Sequence record: NC_001895.1
DNA: 33,593 nt
DNA from: Bacteriophage P2
Direction: 5' to 3' (one strand)
Shown piece by piece: positions 9,439 through 17,261 of this stretch. Numbering within the stretch: the stretch's first letter is position 1; every line of letters starts with the position of its first letter. The position numbers were made by a program, and so were the translations under genes. The notes under the pieces are model-generated. The model saw only the letters and a program-made list of their open reading frames with translations, made no database searches and was not told where the DNA came from.

Positions 9439-10224
9439 TTATGAGTGATTTTTATTTGATGCTTTGTATTCTAAAACCTTCTTATTGGCGTAAAAGAATT
9501 TTGTATATGACAGGAATATAACCAGACCTGAAGTGAAATAGACGAGGGATAGTATTAATAATGCTTTTTTGTGACTGTTATTATCTTTAATCTCCTGGCT
9601 TAACCATTCGGAGTCCTCCTCGTTTAGCTGTAAGAGCTTATTGCAGGCGATCTCAGGAAGTGTGTCTTTTATAAATACGTTTTGCAGTCTCTTGCAATCG
9701 GCAAGGCTATAAGTTTTATTAAATTCAACTGCTTTATTTTTGAAGGATAAAAGAACTTTGTCACTATAAACATAGTACATCATGTTTTTATATGGTATGC
9801 CTGTGGCATCCCTTACTATAACGGATTGTTCGTTGTGTATGTAACATGCGAGGAGAATGTAAAAAATACTGGCCAGAATTACAATTATTGTTTTAATTAT
9901 GTGTGGTGGTTTTGTTATGTCACCCCAGATACGAGTAAGGAAAAAATACGATGTTTTTAGTTTTCCATCAATCAGTCCCTGCTGTATCATTCTCACATTT
10001 TCAATGCCTGATACATTGATTCCGTTAATTATTTTAAATAGTTGAATGTCGCGCCACTCGCGGTCAAGTCTTTTTAATTTTTTGTCTGAATATCCAAAAT
10101 TGAAATAATGTGCAATAAGCCTCATAAGGTTACTTTTACCAAAGCTAAAAAATGCTAATACTGCAAAGCTACAAAGGAAAAAAACGATTAGCCCCCACAC
10201 ATTAGTCACATTATAGCTGACCAT
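9439..10224 (-). CDS. Low-GC accessory (moron) gene: 261-aa membrane protein with about three transmembrane helices, function unknown (P2 orf30 position)
   Basis: ATG at 10222-10224; AT-rich codon usage unlike flanking genes; hydrophobic segments VWGLIVFFLCSFAVLAFFSF, IIKTIIVILASIFYILLACYI, ALLILSLVYFTSGLVIFLSY; opposite strand to the late operons. Confidence 0.75.
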   Translation of the reverse strand: MVSYNVTNVWGLIVFFLCSFAVLAFFSFGKSNLMRLIAHYFNFGYSDKKLKRLDREWRDIQLFKIINGINVSGIENVRMIQQGLIDGKLKTSYFFLTRIWGDITKPPHIIKTIIVILASIFYILLACYIHNEQSVIVRDATGIPYKNMMYYVYSDKVLLSFKNKAVEFNKTYSLADCKRLQNVFIKDTLPEIACNKLLQLNEEDSEWLSQEIKDNNSHKKALLILSLVYFTSGLVIFLSYTKFFYANKKVLEYKASNKNHS

Positions 10225-12733: not shown

Positions 12734-14743
12734 ATGAGCATAAAATTCAGAACCGTTATCACCACTGCCGGTGCAGCAAAGCTGGCAGCGGCAACCGCGC
12801 CGGGAAGGCGGAAGGTCGGCATTACCACGATGGCCGTCGGGGATGGCGGTGGTAAATTGCCTGTCCCGGATGCCGGACAGACCGGGCTTATCCATGAAGT
12901 CTGGCGACATGCGCTGAACAAAATCAGCCAGGACAAACGAAACAGTAATTATATTATCGCCGAGCTGGTTATTCCGCCGGAGGTGGGCGGTTTCTGGATG
13001 CGTGAGCTTGGCCTGTACGATGATGCGGGAACGTTAATTGCCGTGGCGAACATGGCCGAAAGCTATAAGCCAGCCCTTGCCGAAGGCTCAGGACGTTGGC
13101 AGACCTGTCGCATGGTCATCATCGTCAGCAGTGTGGCCTCAGTGGAGCTGACCATTGACACCACAACGGTGATGGCGACGCAGGATTACGTTGATGACAA
13201 AATTGCAGAGCACGAACAGTCACGACGTCACCCGGACGCCTCGCTGACAGCAAAAGGTTTTACTCAGTTAAGCAGTGCGACCAACAGCACGTCTGAAACA
13301 CTGGCCGCAACGCCGAAAGCGGTAAAGGCCGCGTATGACCTGGCTAACGGGAAATATACCGCACAGGACGCCACCACAGCGCGAAAAGGCCTTGTCCAGC
13401 TTAGTAGCGCCACCAACAGCACGTCTGAAACGCTCGCCGCAACACCAAAAGCCGTTAAGACGGTAATGGATGAAACGAACAAAAAAGCGCCATTAAACAG
13501 CCCTGCACTGACCGGAACGCCAACGACGCCAACTGCGCGACAGGGAACGAATAATACTCAGATCGCAAACACGGCTTTCGTTATGGCCGCGATTGCCGCC
13601 CTTGTAGACTCGTCGCCTGACGCACTGAATACGCTGAACGAGCTGGCGGCGGCGCTGGGCAATGACCCGAATTTTGCTACCACCATGACTAATGCGCTTG
13701 CGGGTAAGCAACCGAAAGATGCTACCCTGACGGCGCTGGCGGGGCTTGCTACTGCGGCAGACAGGTTTCCGTATTTTACGGGGAATGATGTTGCCAGCCT
13801 GGCGACCCTGACAAAAGTCGGGCGGGATATTCTGGCTAAATCGACCGTTGCCGCCGTTATCGAATATCTCGGTTTACAGGAAACGGTAAACCGAGCCGGG
13901 AACGCCGTGCAAAAAAATGGCGATACCTTGTCCGGTGGACTTACTTTTGAAAACGACTCAATCCTTGCCTGGATTCGAAATACTGACTGGGCGAAGATTG
14001 GATTTAAAAATGATGCCGATGGTGACACTGATTCATACATGTGGTTTGAAACGGGGGATAACGGCAATGAATATTTCAAATGGAGAAGCCGCCAGAGTAC
14101 CACAACAAAAGACCTGATGACGTTGAAATGGGATGCACTAAATATTCTTGTTAATGCCGTCATTAATGGCTGTTTTGGAGTTGGTACGACGAATGCACTA
14201 GGTGGTAGCTCTATTGTTCTTGGTGATAATGATACCGGATTTAAACAGAATGGAGACGGTATTCTTGATGTTTATGCTAACAGTCAGCGTGTATTCCGTT
14301 TTCAGAATGGAGTGGCTATTGCTTTTAAAAATATTCAGGCAGGTGATAGTAAAAAGTTCTCGCTATCCAGCTCTAATACATCCACGAAGAATATTACCTT
14401 TAATTTATGGGGTGCTTCCACCCGTCCAGTGGTTGCAGAGTTAGGCGATGAGGCCGGATGGCATTTCTATAGCCAGCGAAATACAGATAACTCGGTAATA
14501 TTTGCTGTTAACGGTCAGATGCAACCCAGCAACTGGGGAAATTTTGATTCCCGCTATGTGAAAGATGTTCGCCTGGGTACGCGAGTTGTTCAATTGATGG
14601 CGCGAGGTGGTCGTTATGAAAAAGCCGGACACACGATTACCGGATTAAGAATCATTGGTGAAGTAGATGGCGATGATGAAGCCATCTTCAGGCCGATACA
14701 AAAATACATCAATGGCACATGGTATAACGTTGCGCAGGTGTAA
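12734..14743 (+). CDS. H: Tail fibre protein
   Basis: 669-aa ORF; internal tandem QLSSATNSTSETLAATPKAVK motif typical of tail fibres; C-terminal third is AT-richer than the N-terminal part. Confidence 0.9.
   Translation: MSIKFRTVITTAGAAKLAAATAPGRRKVGITTMAVGDGGGKLPVPDAGQTGLIHEVWRHALNKISQDKRNSNYIIAELVIPPEVGGFWMRELGLYDDAGTLIAVANMAESYKPALAEGSGRWQTCRMVIIVSSVASVELTIDTTTVMATQDYVDDKIAEHEQSRRHPDASLTAKGFTQLSSATNSTSETLAATPKAVKAAYDLANGKYTAQDATTARKGLVQLSSATNSTSETLAATPKAVKTVMDETNKKAPLNSPALTGTPTTPTARQGTNNTQIANTAFVMAAIAALVDSSPDALNTLNELAAALGNDPNFATTMTNALAGKQPKDATLTALAGLATAADRFPYFTGNDVASLATLTKVGRDILAKSTVAAVIEYLGLQETVNRAGNAVQKNGDTLSGGLTFENDSILAWIRNTDWAKIGFKNDADGDTDSYMWFETGDNGNEYFKWRSRQSTTTKDLMTLKWDALNILVNAVINGCFGVGTTNALGGSSIVLGDNDTGFKQNGDGILDVYANSQRVFRFQNGVAIAFKNIQAGDSKKFSLSSSNTSTKNITFNLWGASTRPVVAELGDEAGWHFYSQRNTDNSVIFAVNGQMQPSNWGNFDSRYVKDVRLGTRVVQLMARGGRYEKAGHTITGLRIIGEVDGDDEAIFRPIQKYINGTWYNVAQV
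13265..13460 (+). repeat. Imperfect direct repeat (about 64 nt, twice, period 132 nt) inside tail fibre gene H
   Basis: 13265-13328 and 13397-13460 are near-identical at nucleotide level; they encode the duplicated peptide QLSSATNSTSETLAATPKAVK; the minus-strand shadow ORF 13264-13482 shows the same duplication. Confidence 0.8.
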
Positions 14744-14746
14744 GTT

Positions 14747-15274
14747 ATGCAGCATTTAAAGAACATTAAGTCAGGTAATCCAAAAACAAAAGAGCAATAT
14801 CAGCTAACAAAGAATTTTGATGTTATCTGGTTATGGTCCGAAGACGGAAAAAACTGGTATGAGGAAGTGAAGAACTTTCAGCCAGACACAATAAAGATTG
14901 TTTACGATGAAAATAATATTATTGTCGCTATCACCAGAGATGCTTCAACGCTTAATCCTGAAGGTTTTAGCGTTGTTGAGGTTCCTGATATTACCTCCAA
15001 CCGACGTGCTGACGACTCAGGTAAATGGATGTTTAAGGATGGTGCTGTGGTTAAACGGATTTATACGGCAGATGAACAGCAACAACAGGCAGAATCACAA
15101 AAGGCCGCGTTACTTTCCGAAGCGGAAAACGTTATTCAGCCACTGGAACGCGCTGTCAGGCTGAATATGGCGACGGATGAGGAACGTGCACGACTGGAGT
15201 CATGGGAACGTTACAGCGTTCTGGTCAGCCGTGTGGATCCTGCAAATCCTGAATGGCCGGAAATGCCGCAATAA
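14747..15274 (+). CDS. G: Tail fibre assembly chaperone
   Basis: 175-aa ORF immediately downstream of H; AT-richer composition shared with the 3' part of H. Confidence 0.85.
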
Positions 15275-15674: not shown

Positions 15675-17261
15675 TTATTTTTTTAAAGCCTTTCCGACGT
15701 TTAAGGATTTTGCCAAGCCATAAAATATTTGATATTTCATTCCTGTTTTTATTTTTGGTGAGATATTTGCGTAACTTCTTTCTCTAAAACACCAACGTAT
15801 AAACCTATTATTATCTTCGGTTGTTTCTATATAGCATATTACATTGAGACCAAAAAGAAACTGAAGGAAGTCATTTGCAGTTGTCATGAATTTTGGTTTT
15901 GTTGTGGAAATGGAACTAATATGAGTTTCAAGTTGTTTATATGCTAAGAGGTATTCAGCGTAATCAAAAGTATCTTTTCCAGAGAGGAATTCAAAGAACT
16001 TTAAAAAAATCTCATAATGTTCACTTCCATAATAAAATGATAAATGATCTTTTATTTCTCCAAGTAAATAGTTAGAGTAATCTCTTTGCATGCTAGGACT
16101 TTCAAAGTCATCTAGACTAAATTGATTTTTCCCATCATCACCGCTGGCGTGTGATTTGATAATTTCGAGCATCCGTAATATATCTCTTGGGCGATAATAT
16201 GACCAGCGAAGGAAATTAATAAATGATGTGGGGTGGTTATAATTATCATGGACGTTGGGTGAATCCCAAGGGAAATAATGGTCCCATGCCTGTCCCTTTT
16301 TAAGGGCCATGTCTTGCTGAGTCCTAAGCAGATGATCTAATACCTCAAATAATTGAGAGCTACGGTGGTTAACATATTCTGTCCGCCAGTCCAAGAATAC
16401 TGAATTATCTCTGATTTTTGCGTTTTGATTTTGTAATCCTATGGATTCAAATATATCTGGCCTGATCAAGAGAACGGCCTTCATTCTCCCTTTTCCTCCC
16501 TTTATACTTGGGAAGAAATCGTTGTTAATCTCCCAGACTGCGTGAGCTAATCCTTTTATACATTCTAGATAATCATCGTATGGAATTGAGGAAGGGCGGA
16601 TATCAATACCATCGATAAATAAAATATGATTTTGAGATAAACGTATTTGGCTAAAGGCCTCTTCAAATTTTTTTTGTATATAAAATAAATTTATCTGAAA
16701 TCTGCTCTCAGAAAAAGATAAAGACTCTCTTTCTTCACCTTTTAAGGTTGCATGCTTATGAAGTAGTTCGGCTGCAACTTTTGACTCTTGAACAAAACTG
16801 AGGGCTTGAATTATTTCTGGTGAAAATGCCTTAAGATAATACTCATCTATTGCATCATTAAGTGATGAGAATTTTGAATAATTTAGTAACTTTGAAATTT
16901 TCCCTTCTTTATCTAATACTTGTTTTGATATTAATAAATATAGAATAACTTTCCATATGCCAGAGAAGTCAGACAAATTTAAATGCTTTTCAGATTTAAG
17001 AGTGATAAATTTTTGATATTCTGTCTCTCTTATATATTTAGTTGTAGCTAGCGTATTGTTAATATTGTTATTTGAGAGATAGATAGAGTATGCGGTTTTA
17101 CCAGTACCTTTCTCTCCTACAAGAAACGATATATTTGGTTCACATAATCTAGATAGGTGATTATCACGTATGAACACTTTGTTAAGTAATTCTTTATTCT
17201 CCCTTCTCTTATAATTTTCAGCATCAGCATAGCCAAGAGTTAGATCTTTGATTGGTATCAT
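15675..17261 (-). CDS. fun: Low-GC accessory gene: 528-aa P-loop NTPase (Walker A GEKGTGKT; candidate Walker B ILFIDGIDIR), candidate phage-exclusion protein at the Z/fun position
   Basis: ATG at 17259-17261 with GAGGT RBS; strongly AT-rich; minus strand between plus-strand G and FI; flanked by about 400-bp AT-rich non-coding regions; gene symbol assigned from position in the P2 map, not from sequence comparison. Confidence 0.75.
   Translation of the reverse strand: MIPIKDLTLGYADAENYKRRENKELLNKVFIRDNHLSRLCEPNISFLVGEKGTGKTAYSIYLSNNNINNTLATTKYIRETEYQKFITLKSEKHLNLSDFSGIWKVILYLLISKQVLDKEGKISKLLNYSKFSSLNDAIDEYYLKAFSPEIIQALSFVQESKVAAELLHKHATLKGEERESLSFSESRFQINLFYIQKKFEEAFSQIRLSQNHILFIDGIDIRPSSIPYDDYLECIKGLAHAVWEINNDFFPSIKGGKGRMKAVLLIRPDIFESIGLQNQNAKIRDNSVFLDWRTEYVNHRSSQLFEVLDHLLRTQQDMALKKGQAWDHYFPWDSPNVHDNYNHPTSFINFLRWSYYRPRDILRMLEIIKSHASGDDGKNQFSLDDFESPSMQRDYSNYLLGEIKDHLSFYYGSEHYEIFLKFFEFLSGKDTFDYAEYLLAYKQLETHISSISTTKPKFMTTANDFLQFLFGLNVICYIETTEDNNRFIRWCFRERSYANISPKIKTGMKYQIFYGLAKSLNVGKALKK

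What the first reader, a model, noticed from the sequence alone, without database searches (positions are those of the whole stretch)
13265..13460. Near-identical 64-nt direct repeat inside tail fibre gene H
Two copies (13265-13328 and 13397-13460) encode the duplicated peptide QLSSATNSTSETLAATPKAVK. This is a widely shared tail-fibre motif and a plausible substrate for homologous exchange of distal fibre modules, or for repeat expansion and contraction that would change fibre length.
Basis: seen in the sequence. Interest (0 to 1): 0.45.

Follow-up and report, generated by a model that had tools for sequence, protein, structure and literature searches.

The report
Known tail-fibre repeat, module-swapping joint
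The duplicated peptide in phage P2's tail-fibre gene H is two tandem copies of the already catalogued "phage tail fibre repeat", and comparison with relatives shows it is the place where fibre tips get swapped and where the number of repeat units goes up and down, which is real but long-recognised biology.

Summary
The window is the phage P2 genome, and the gene is P2 gpH (exact match to FIBH_BPP2).

**Observation.** The repeat is real but overstated. The two 21-aa peptides are identical. The DNA copies share only 52/64 nt (81%). All 11 differences within the 21 codons are synonymous. The true unit is 132 nt / 44 aa, in two tandem copies placed directly after the N-terminal domain (PF12571).

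**Identity.** It is Pfam PF03406, "Phage tail fibre repeat". It also occurs in lambda Stf, Mu S, P1 S and Stx-phage fibres.

- In 59 of 80 close P2-type contigs, ~96% DNA identity to P2 collapses to random exactly after the last codon of copy 2 (window 13459/13460).
- Other relatives change divergence level at the start of the array or at the start of copy 2.
- Copy number is 1–5 in H homologues and about 15 in one P1-like S gene, always in 132-nt steps.
- One single-copy relative is a copy-1/copy-2 chimera.
- Two contigs with ≥99% identical flanks carry 3 versus 5 units.
- A published functional lambda-Stf::P2-H chimera is joined 9 residues after copy 2.

**Not shown.** Whether the repeat causes the exchanges or merely marks a domain boundary is inferred, not shown. 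Any effect on fibre length is untested.

**Verdict.** Already known; low-to-moderate interest.

The parts
12734..14743 (+). Gene H, P2 tail fibre protein (669 aa)
   Evidence: ORF. Exact sequence match to FIBH_BPP2 / NP_046775.1. Pfam PF12571 + PF03406 x2 + PF21446.
12734..13186 (+). N-terminal tail-collar fibre domain (aa 1-151), the conserved part of H upstream of the repeats
   Evidence: PF12571 at 193 bits. AF2 model is confident for aa 1-135. Mean pairwise identity is ~70% among 103 unique homologues.
13241..13372 (+). Repeat unit 1 (aa 170-213): lead SLTAKGFT, core, linker AAYDLANGKYTAQDA
   Evidence: PF03406 stretch aa 170-210. HMM built from the two units matches aa 170-213.
13265..13327 (+). 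Core of unit 1, QLSSATNSTSETLAATPKAVK (aa 178-198)
   Evidence: Many relatives start matching P2 at H nt 531-547.
13373..13504 (+). Repeat unit 2 (aa 214-257): lead TTARKGLV, core, exit sequence TVMDETNKKAPLNSP
   Evidence: Second PF03406 stretch. HMM match aa 214-257.
13397..13459 (+). Core of unit 2 (aa 222-242). Its last codon is the sharp similarity boundary with multi-copy relatives.
   Evidence: Identity falls from ~95% to random after H nt 726.
13460..13486 (+). Exit motif TVMDETNKK (aa 243-251), shared with lambda Stf (VVMDETNRK). This is the fusion point of the published lambda-P2 chimera.
   Evidence: lambda alignment. (PMC11338833: lambda STF 1-393 + P2 H 251 onwards).
13857..13884 (+). 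gix-like relic site (25/28 match to the Mu G-segment boundary site). It is a second, separate mosaic junction in H and not part of the repeat.
   Evidence: Mu, P1 and D108 DNA homology starts at H nt ~1117.
14747..15274 (+). Gene G, tail fibre assembly protein, co-transferred with the distal part of H
   Evidence: PF02413 Caudo_TAP at 130.7 bits. Relatives with other distal modules match G only weakly, at 75-86%.

Best explanation
The feature is a two-unit tandem array (period 132 nt / 44 aa) of the Pfam PF03406 'phage tail fibre repeat' in P2 tail-fibre protein gpH. It sits immediately after the conserved N-terminal domain (PF12571).

Shown:
- Selection acts on the peptide, not the DNA. The two 21-aa cores are identical, while 11 of 21 codons differ synonymously.
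- The core is 95-100% conserved across 103 distinct H homologues.
- Sequence conservation collapses within about 10-20 residues after the last core.
- At least 11-20 unrelated distal modules are attached at exactly that point.
- The same unit occurs in fibres with quite different N-terminal domains (lambda-type Stf with PF08400, Mu S, P1 S).
- Copy number changes in whole 132-nt units, even between otherwise ≥99% identical genes.
- One single-copy relative is a copy-1/copy-2 chimera, with the switch inside the core.

Inferred:
- Each unit is a self-contained structural segment of the trimeric fibre shaft, so adding or removing units is tolerated.
- Because the core is the one stretch shared by otherwise unrelated fibre genes, homologous or relaxed-homology recombination within it joins a resident proximal part to a foreign distal receptor-binding part plus its chaperone gene. 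Candidate machinery is host RecA or Rad52-type prophage recombinases.
- In-register unequal recombination or slippage between units expands and contracts the array.
For: - Family assignment and architecture.
- Peptide-level selection.
- Conservation profile anchored on the array.
- Sharp boundary after K242: (59 of 80 close relatives).
- 11-20 distinct distal modules directly after the last core, with copy number varying inside each multi-member cluster.
- Junctions at the array start and at the start of unit 2.
- Natural lambdoid Stf::P2-H-type fibre (L130) with one unit at the joint.
- Copy-number variants of 1, 3, 4 and ~15. Range 1-4 in 41 prophages from the one-genome-per-species collection, plus three phage records. 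Range 1-5 in 74 complete P2-type genes.
- Variants also occur in complete E. coli genomes, seen as record spans 132 nt shorter or longer than the query: hits H125-H127 and H139.
- Chimeric single copy in NC_070904.1.
- 3 versus 5 units with 99.6% / 99.0% identical flanks, and a 127/132-identical adjacent unit pair.
- Functional engineered chimera joined 9 residues after core 2: (PMC11338833).
- Published L-413C hybrid boundary at aa 207, 9 residues after core 1: (PMC7460101, citing Garcia et al. 2008).
Against: - A similarity boundary shows where conserved sequence meets variable sequence. It does not show where strands crossed. Exchange between P2-like phages could equally occur anywhere in the conserved upstream genes.
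- P2's own copies share only 81% identity with a 20-nt longest exact run, which is marginal for RecA-dependent recombination. In the chimeric relative the switch lies in only 5-8 nt of identity relative to present-day P2 copies.
- About 84-86% nt identity of the core between unrelated fibres is no higher than between P2's two paralogous copies. The isolated 'island' hits may therefore reflect peptide constraint plus codon bias rather than recent transfer.
- Endpoint counts are not independent events, because many relatives share one ancestral junction.
- H has other junction clusters: nt ~220, ~1117-1142, ~1403-1437, ~1804-1813 and ~1956-1966. The repeat is one hotspot among several.
- No structure of the unit is available. 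The AF2 monomer model has pLDDT below 50 there, and the Mu cryo-EM model covers only the fibre N-terminus, residue range not given. The 'independent structural segment' and 'fibre length' steps are therefore unverified.
Confidence: 0.75

Rival explanations
1. The repeat is only a conserved structural element marking the end of the constant proximal part of the fibre. New distal modules are joined by illegitimate recombination, or by recombination elsewhere, and selection for fibres that still fold leaves only junctions at this domain boundary. On this view the DNA repeat plays no causal role.
For: - All divergence between the two copies is synonymous, so selection is on the peptide.
- The boundary is as sharp at protein level as at DNA level.
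- P2's copies are poor recombination substrates, at 81% identity with a 20-nt longest exact run.
- Engineered fusions work at this point without any homology-driven step.
Against: - The single-copy relative is an in-register chimera of copy-1 and copy-2 variants.
- All copy-number changes are exact multiples of 132 nt.
- The two homology tracts that make up P2 H overlap only in unit 2: the P2-type tract runs to nt 726 and the Stf-type tract starts at nt 642-651. That overlap is what a crossover inside the unit predicts.
Confidence: 0.2
2. Exchange of fibre modules here is driven by site-specific DNA invertases of the Din family (Gin/Cin/Pin), as proposed for tail-fibre gene exchange among unrelated phages, rather than by the repeat.
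For: - De Paepe et al. 2014 attribute stf-type exchanges to invertases, citing Sandmeier 1994.
- P2 H carries a gix-like site at 13857-13884, a 25/28 match to Mu, exactly where Mu/P1/D108 homology begins.
- Several relatives carry an invertase and inverted fibre segments downstream.
Against: - The gix-like site is about 400 nt downstream of the repeat, and it is the only such site in the window.
- It explains the junction at nt ~1117, but not the junctions at nt 519-547, 642-664 and 719-728, and not the 132-nt copy-number steps.
Confidence: 0.04
3. The copy-number differences are assembly artefacts, with collapsed or expanded repeats in short-read assemblies.
For: - Most top protein hits are 'partial' proteins ending at contig ends in or after the array.
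- One P1-like record has its S gene split into four frameshifted fragments across about 15 units.
Against: - Variants with 1, 3 and 4 units occur in records deposited as complete phage genomes.
- They also occur in complete E. coli chromosomes (hits H125-H127 and H139).
- Units within an array are mostly 58-92% identical, which is easy to assemble.
- All variant genes keep an intact reading frame.
Confidence: 0.01

Closest known systems
Pfam PF03406 (Phage_fiber_2, 'Phage tail fibre repeat'; InterPro IPR005068), first recognised in lambda Stf
   Same: P2 H matches the model at 129 bits in two stretches. Lambda orf-401 carries one unit with the identical 21-aa core followed by the same MDETN exit motif. 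Mu S has one unit and P1 S has one plus a degenerate one.
   Different: Nothing essential differs. P2 simply has two units placed after a PF12571 N-domain, instead of after the PF08400 N-domain and Ala/Ser-rich stalk of Stf-type fibres.
Repeated elements a0/a1 in the constant part (Sc) of the phage P1 tail-fibre gene S, annotated in NC_005856 from GenBank M81956
   Same: Element a1 is 132 nt, the same period as here, and it corresponds to the PF03406 unit at S aa 215-258. Element a0 is a partial copy.
   Different: P1 has one full and one degenerate unit. Its variable distal part is switched by Cin inversion at cixR, about 600 nt downstream of the a1 unit, not at the repeat.
Mosaic tail-fibre genes of P2, Mu, P1, lambda and T-even phages (Haggard-Ljungquist, Halling & Calendar 1992, PMID 1531648; Sandmeier et al. 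1992, PMID 1534556; Sandmeier 1994, PMID 8065255). Cited; I could not read them.
   Same: The same gene and the same conclusion: H is a patchwork sharing segments with unrelated phages' fibres.
   Different: Whether the 1992-94 papers already singled out this repeat as a junction could not be checked.
Recombination between conserved motifs flanking variable segments in T-even gp37 adhesins (Tetart, Desplats & Krisch 1998; recalled from memory, and its text was not read)
   Same: The logic is the same: short conserved motifs inside fibre genes act as homology patches that allow receptor-binding segments to be swapped.
   Different: Those are different motifs in a different part of the fibre (the distal tip rather than the proximal shaft). 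There is no sequence relationship, and no experimental recombinants were examined here.
Length polymorphism of collagen-like and coiled-coil segments in EHEC prophage side tail fibres (Ghosh et al. 2012, PMC3368898)
   Same: Prophage fibres vary in length by whole structural repeats. Some of these proteins also carry a PF03406 ('Pf2') unit between stalk segments.
   Different: The varying repeats there are Gly-X-Y triplets and heptads, not the 44-aa unit. [quoted passage not shown]

Membership tests
Pfam PF03406 Phage_fiber_2 (phage tail fibre repeat) | Score above the curated gathering threshold | tested here: met
   129.4 bits against a cut-off of 22, with two stretches.
Pfam PF03406 Phage_fiber_2 (phage tail fibre repeat) | Tandem units of about 40 residues | tested here: met
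   Two adjacent 44-aa units at aa 170-213 and 214-257, with 132-nt spacing.
Pfam PF03406 Phage_fiber_2 (phage tail fibre repeat) | Host protein is a phage tail fibre | tested here: met
   Exact match to FIBH_BPP2. PF12571 N-domain, and a Caudo_TAP chaperone gene immediately downstream.
Pfam PF03406 Phage_fiber_2 (phage tail fibre repeat) | Forms a defined structural unit of a trimeric fibre | tested here: inconclusive
   AF2 monomer model has pLDDT below 50 over aa 159-300. No solved chain other than Mu S contains the motif, and the Mu cryo-EM model covers only the fibre N-terminus, residue range not given.
Recombination-linker motifs in fibre genes (conserved patch between exchangeable modules) | Conserved patch flanked by unrelated sequence on one or both sides in different phages | tested here: met
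   N-domains differ (PF12571 versus PF08400 versus the Mu and P1 types). There are 11-20 different distal modules after the last core. Some hits are confined to H nt 531-728.
Recombination-linker motifs in fibre genes (conserved patch between exchangeable modules) | Crossovers map inside the patch | tested here: inconclusive
   There is one clear in-register chimera, and the two homology tracts overlap only in unit 2. Most of the remaining evidence consists of similarity boundaries, not mapped crossovers.
Recombination-linker motifs in fibre genes (conserved patch between exchangeable modules) | Recombinants arise experimentally at the patch | not testable with these tools
   This needs phage crosses. 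Only an engineered fusion at this point is documented.
Din-invertase crossover site (gix/cix) | Match to the ~26-28 nt crossover-site sequence at the junction in question | tested here: not met
   The only gix-like site in the window is 13857-13884, about 400 nt downstream of the repeat. No such site lies at 13241-13504.

The most novel reading that the evidence does not exclude
The 21-aa core, with its sharp edges, is kept nearly invariant across fibres of contractile-tailed (P2, Mu, P1), lambda-like and Stx-converting phages because it acts as a shared docking standard. Lineages that keep it can acquire any distal receptor-binding module by recombination, which would be second-order selection for evolvability. 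In addition, the consistently high synonymous divergence between neighbouring units would be selected to stabilise arrays against deletion. Copy number would then tune fibre reach to the thickness of the host surface layers.
Probability: 0.12. Interest if true: 0.5.

Novelty: already known. Interest (0 to 1): 0.25.

Why it matters
This junction is where P2-type, lambda-type and P1/Mu-type fibres naturally exchange their receptor-binding parts. That makes it a practical, nature-validated fusion point for host-range engineering, and a published lambda–P2 chimera already uses it.

Two practical consequences follow:
- Draft assemblies often break or mis-annotate fibre genes at this array.
- HMM counts of the repeat can fail in low-complexity fibres.

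The biology itself is established: mosaic fibre genes, a catalogued repeat, and variable repeat number.

Tried and rejected
- **AF2 monomer model of H aa 1-300 with a 34-sequence alignment.** The N-domain is confident but the repeat region has pLDDT below 50, so no fold search was run on it.
- **Sequence search of the PDB with the repeat region alone.** Only Mu S entries matched. The Mu cryo-EM paper built only the N-terminus of the fibre, residue range not given.
- **Primary papers not held.** Haggard-Ljungquist 1992, Sandmeier 1992, and Christie & Calendar 2016 could not be read. Searches for the peptide strings MDETNR, ADAKKS and SAGDAS found nothing.
- **Top 120 protein-database hits.** These are ranked by summed repeat score and are mostly truncated, so they were rejected as an unbiased sample of copy number. 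The one-genome-per-species set and the viral contigs were used instead.
- **My first core regex.** It matched nothing because of a spacing error and was corrected.
- **Argument from nucleotide identity, dropped.** I considered arguing that 84-86% nt identity of the core between unrelated fibres proves recent transfer. P2's own paralogous cores are equally similar (83%), so the argument does not hold.
- **Other readings checked.** Only small mechanical ORFs overlap the repeat in other frames, and there is no third copy elsewhere in the genome.
Full report
**What the window is.** The 33,593-base window has the P2 gene order. The 669-aa product of ORF 12734-14743 (+) is an exact match to FIBH_BPP2 / NP_046775.1, the tail fibre protein gpH of phage P2. 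Pfam finds three families in it:
- PF12571, the tail-collar fibre N-terminal domain, at aa 1-151.
- PF03406, the 'Phage tail fibre repeat', in two stretches at 129 bits against a cut-off of 22.
- PF21446 at aa 419-481.

The next gene, 14747-15274, is a Caudo_TAP tail-fibre assembly protein.

**Checking the observation.** Both encode QLSSATNSTSETLAATPKAVK (aa 178-198 and 222-242). At DNA level they are not near-identical:
- They share 52 of 64 nt (81%), with a longest exact run of 20 nt.
- Eleven of the 21 codons differ, and every difference is synonymous. That is 0 changes in about 47 non-synonymous sites and 11 in about 16 synonymous sites.
- The repeat finder extends the pair to 76 nt at 79% identity with 132-nt spacing.

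The real unit is 44 aa, consisting of a short lead, the 21-aa core, and a linker (AAYDLANGKYTAQDA). The second unit is followed instead by an exit sequence (TVMDETNKKAPLNSP). The similarity is far beyond chance, and there is no third copy in any frame of the genome. Only trivial ORFs overlap it in other frames. The pattern of substitutions shows that selection acts on the peptide.

**How widespread it is.** tblastn of the two-unit region finds it in 422 of 50,697 phage records, covering P2-like, Mu-like, P1-like, lambda-like and Stx-converting phages, plus Haemophilus and Erwinia phages.
- Lambda orf-401 (the N part of Stf) has one unit with the identical 21-aa core, followed by VVMDETNRK.
- Mu S has one unit.
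- P1 S has one full and one degenerate unit. The P1 GenBank record already annotates 'repeated element a0 (36 nt)' and 'a1 (132 nt)' there.
- Some part of H matches 2,746 of 5,426 complete E. coli genomes, but only 118 cover at least 80% of the gene. Many hits cover just H nt ~531-728, which is the array alone, inside lambdoid side-tail-fibre genes.

**Do mosaic junctions coincide with the repeat?** I fetched 80 viral contigs whose H N-domain is at least 96% identical to P2. The ~96% DNA-identity tract that starts in gene I ends at these positions:

| End of high-identity tract (H nt) | Contigs |
|---|---|
| 719-728 (last codons of core 2; window 13452-13461) | 59 |
| 1403-1425 | 11 |
| 594, resuming at 664 (single-copy alleles) | 3 |
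| Runs through the whole gene | 7 |

Base-by-base, identity drops from about 95% to random immediately after the AAG codon of K242. Other junctions fall at the array edges too:
- A divergent P2-like prophage (L131) is 74% identical to P2 upstream and 92.5% identical from H nt 519 to the end of the gene.
- Lambda similarity starts at H nt 642.
- A lambdoid prophage Stf gene (L130) has a PF08400 N-domain, a long Ala/Ser-rich stalk and a single repeat unit. It is 91.5% identical to P2 H from nt 651 to 1425. It is a natural counterpart of an engineered chimera.
- Mu S shares only an island at the repeat, then resumes near-identity at aa 375.

Among listed match endpoints, 57 of 98 in the E. coli sample and 21 of 67 in the phage sample lie within 16 nt of a core edge, against 6.6% expected. 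These counts are descriptive, because lineages are not independent.

I anchored 103 distinct H proteins on the array. Mean pairwise identity is about 70% in the N-domain and 95-100% in the core. It falls to about 28% by 10 residues and about 15% by 22 residues after the last core. Between 11 and 20 unrelated distal modules, depending on the clustering threshold, are attached at that point.

**Copy-number variation.**
- Complete phage genomes carry 1 unit (NC_070904.1), 3 (P88) and 4 (vB_EcoM-12474III). A P1-like phage has about 15.
- In 41 prophages from the one-genome-per-species collection, together with three phage records, the counts are 1 unit in 7, 2 in 19, 3 in 13 and 4 in 5. The array always starts at about aa 170.
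- Among 74 complete close P2-type genes the counts are 1 unit in 2, 2 in 17, 3 in 3, 4 in 45 and 5 in 7.
- Copy number varies within every multi-member distal-module cluster.
- Complete E. coli chromosomes show the same ±132-nt differences.

The single unit of NC_070904.1 carries copy-1-specific synonymous variants up to CCGAAAGC, then copy-2-specific variants and the copy-2 downstream flank. It is therefore an in-register chimera whose switch lies inside the core. Contigs L050 and L106 have flanks 99.6% and 99.0% identical but carry 5 and 3 units. In L050 two adjacent internal units are 127/132 identical, which is the signature of a recent tandem duplication. Elsewhere, units within an array are 58-95% identical, and adjacent internal units are the most alike.

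**Literature.**
- PF03406 ('Pf2') was noted by Ghosh et al. 2012 as first identified in lambda Stf, with 'little known' about its structure or function.
- It is listed among repeat families without a known structure.
- De Paepe et al. 2014 cite Haggard-Ljungquist 1992 and Sandmeier 1992/1994 for fibre-gene exchange among unrelated phages, and attribute it to invertases. I could not read those primary papers.
- Garcia et al. 2008, as cited in PMC7460101, placed the P2-like part of L-413C GpH at the N-terminal 207 residues, which is 9 residues after core 1. This agrees with my DNA result.
- Brödel et al. 2024 built a functional chimera from lambda STF 1-393 and P2 H 251-669. In my alignment both end-points lie in the shared MDETN(R/K)K exit motif, 9 residues after the core.

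**Mechanism.**
- Shown: peptide-level purifying selection; the position of the array between the conserved N-terminal domain and the variable part; junction clustering at both array edges and between units; whole-unit copy-number changes; one chimeric allele; a working engineered joint.
- Inferred: each unit is a separable segment of the trimeric shaft. The shared core provides the homology at which recombination joins a resident proximal part to a foreign distal part and its chaperone gene. In-register unequal recombination or slippage changes unit number.

The main rival is that the array merely marks a domain boundary and that selection, not homology, places the junctions there. P2's own copies (81% identity, 20-nt longest exact run) are indeed poor substrates, and boundaries are not crossovers. 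Against this rival stand three observations. The single-copy allele is an in-register chimera. Copy number changes in exact 132-nt steps. The P2-type tract (to nt 726) and the Stf-type tract (from nt 642-651) overlap only in unit 2.

Invertase-mediated exchange explains a different junction. P2 H has a gix-like site at 13857-13884, a 25/28 match to Mu, exactly where Mu/P1 homology begins. It is the only such site in the window.

The structure remains unknown. The AF2 monomer model is confident only for aa 1-135. The Mu cryo-EM paper built only the N-terminus of the fibre, residue range not given. The effect on fibre length is untested.

**Verdict.** The element is a catalogued repeat in a textbook mosaic gene, its 132-nt period is already annotated in P1, and its junction is already exploited in engineering. 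It is therefore already known, and the new content here is quantitative.

Noticed in passing
window 13857-13884 (+): A gix-like site sits inside gene H. TTATCGAATATCTCGGTTTACAGGAAAC matches the Mu G-segment boundary site at 25/28 positions and is the only such site in the window. It lies exactly where DNA homology to Mu, D108 and P1 variable fibre segments begins (H nt ~1117), although P2 has no invertase. It looks like a relic of an invertible-segment ancestor.
   Followed up: partly
proteins P0001-P0120: Most database proteins that best match the N-terminal 260 aa of H are annotated 'partial' and end at contig ends within or just after the repeat array. This suggests that short-read assemblies commonly break there.
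   Followed up: partly
L004 4887-8405 (Escherichia phage vB_EcoM-813R1, P1-like): The tail-fibre gene S is annotated as four consecutive 'fragment' CDSs. About 15 repeat units of two alternating types (44 and 56 aa) are spread over all three frames. This is either frameshift or assembly error in a very long array, or a genuine pseudogene.
   Followed up: partly
L130 2107-4986 (E. coli ES6 lambdoid prophage): The stf gene is annotated as an incomplete pseudogene, although the ORF is continuous (959 aa). Both hmmscan and hmmsearch fail to report its single, clearly present repeat unit (aa ~462-492), probably because of composition-bias filtering in this Ala/Ser-rich protein.
   Followed up: yes
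L127 2600-2636 (phage lambda orf-401 end): In the lambda reference sequence, orf-401 leaves the Stf reading frame (…MDETNRKA then HWTVRH-stop) immediately after the repeat's exit motif. P2 H continues there with PLNSPALTG.
   Followed up: partly
window 12734-14743, H nt ~220, ~1403-1437, ~1804-1813, ~1956-1966: Relatives show further recurrent similarity boundaries in H at these positions. The gene therefore has at least five other mosaic joints besides the repeat and the gix-like site.
   Followed up: no
window 15675-17261 (-) and 9439-10224 (-): Two minus-strand ORFs interrupt the plus-strand tail gene block. One is 528 aa and contains a Walker-A-like GEKGTGKT. The other is 261 aa with hydrophobic stretches. 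They look like inserted accessory genes.
   Followed up: no
window 13511-13850 (H aa 260-372): The segment after the repeats (…ALVDSSPDALNTLNELAAALGNDPNFATT…) matches a solved 'tail collar fibers gp4' chain (9d93, E = 4e-10). It is shared with lambda-type Stf genes, but Mu S lacks it.
   Followed up: no
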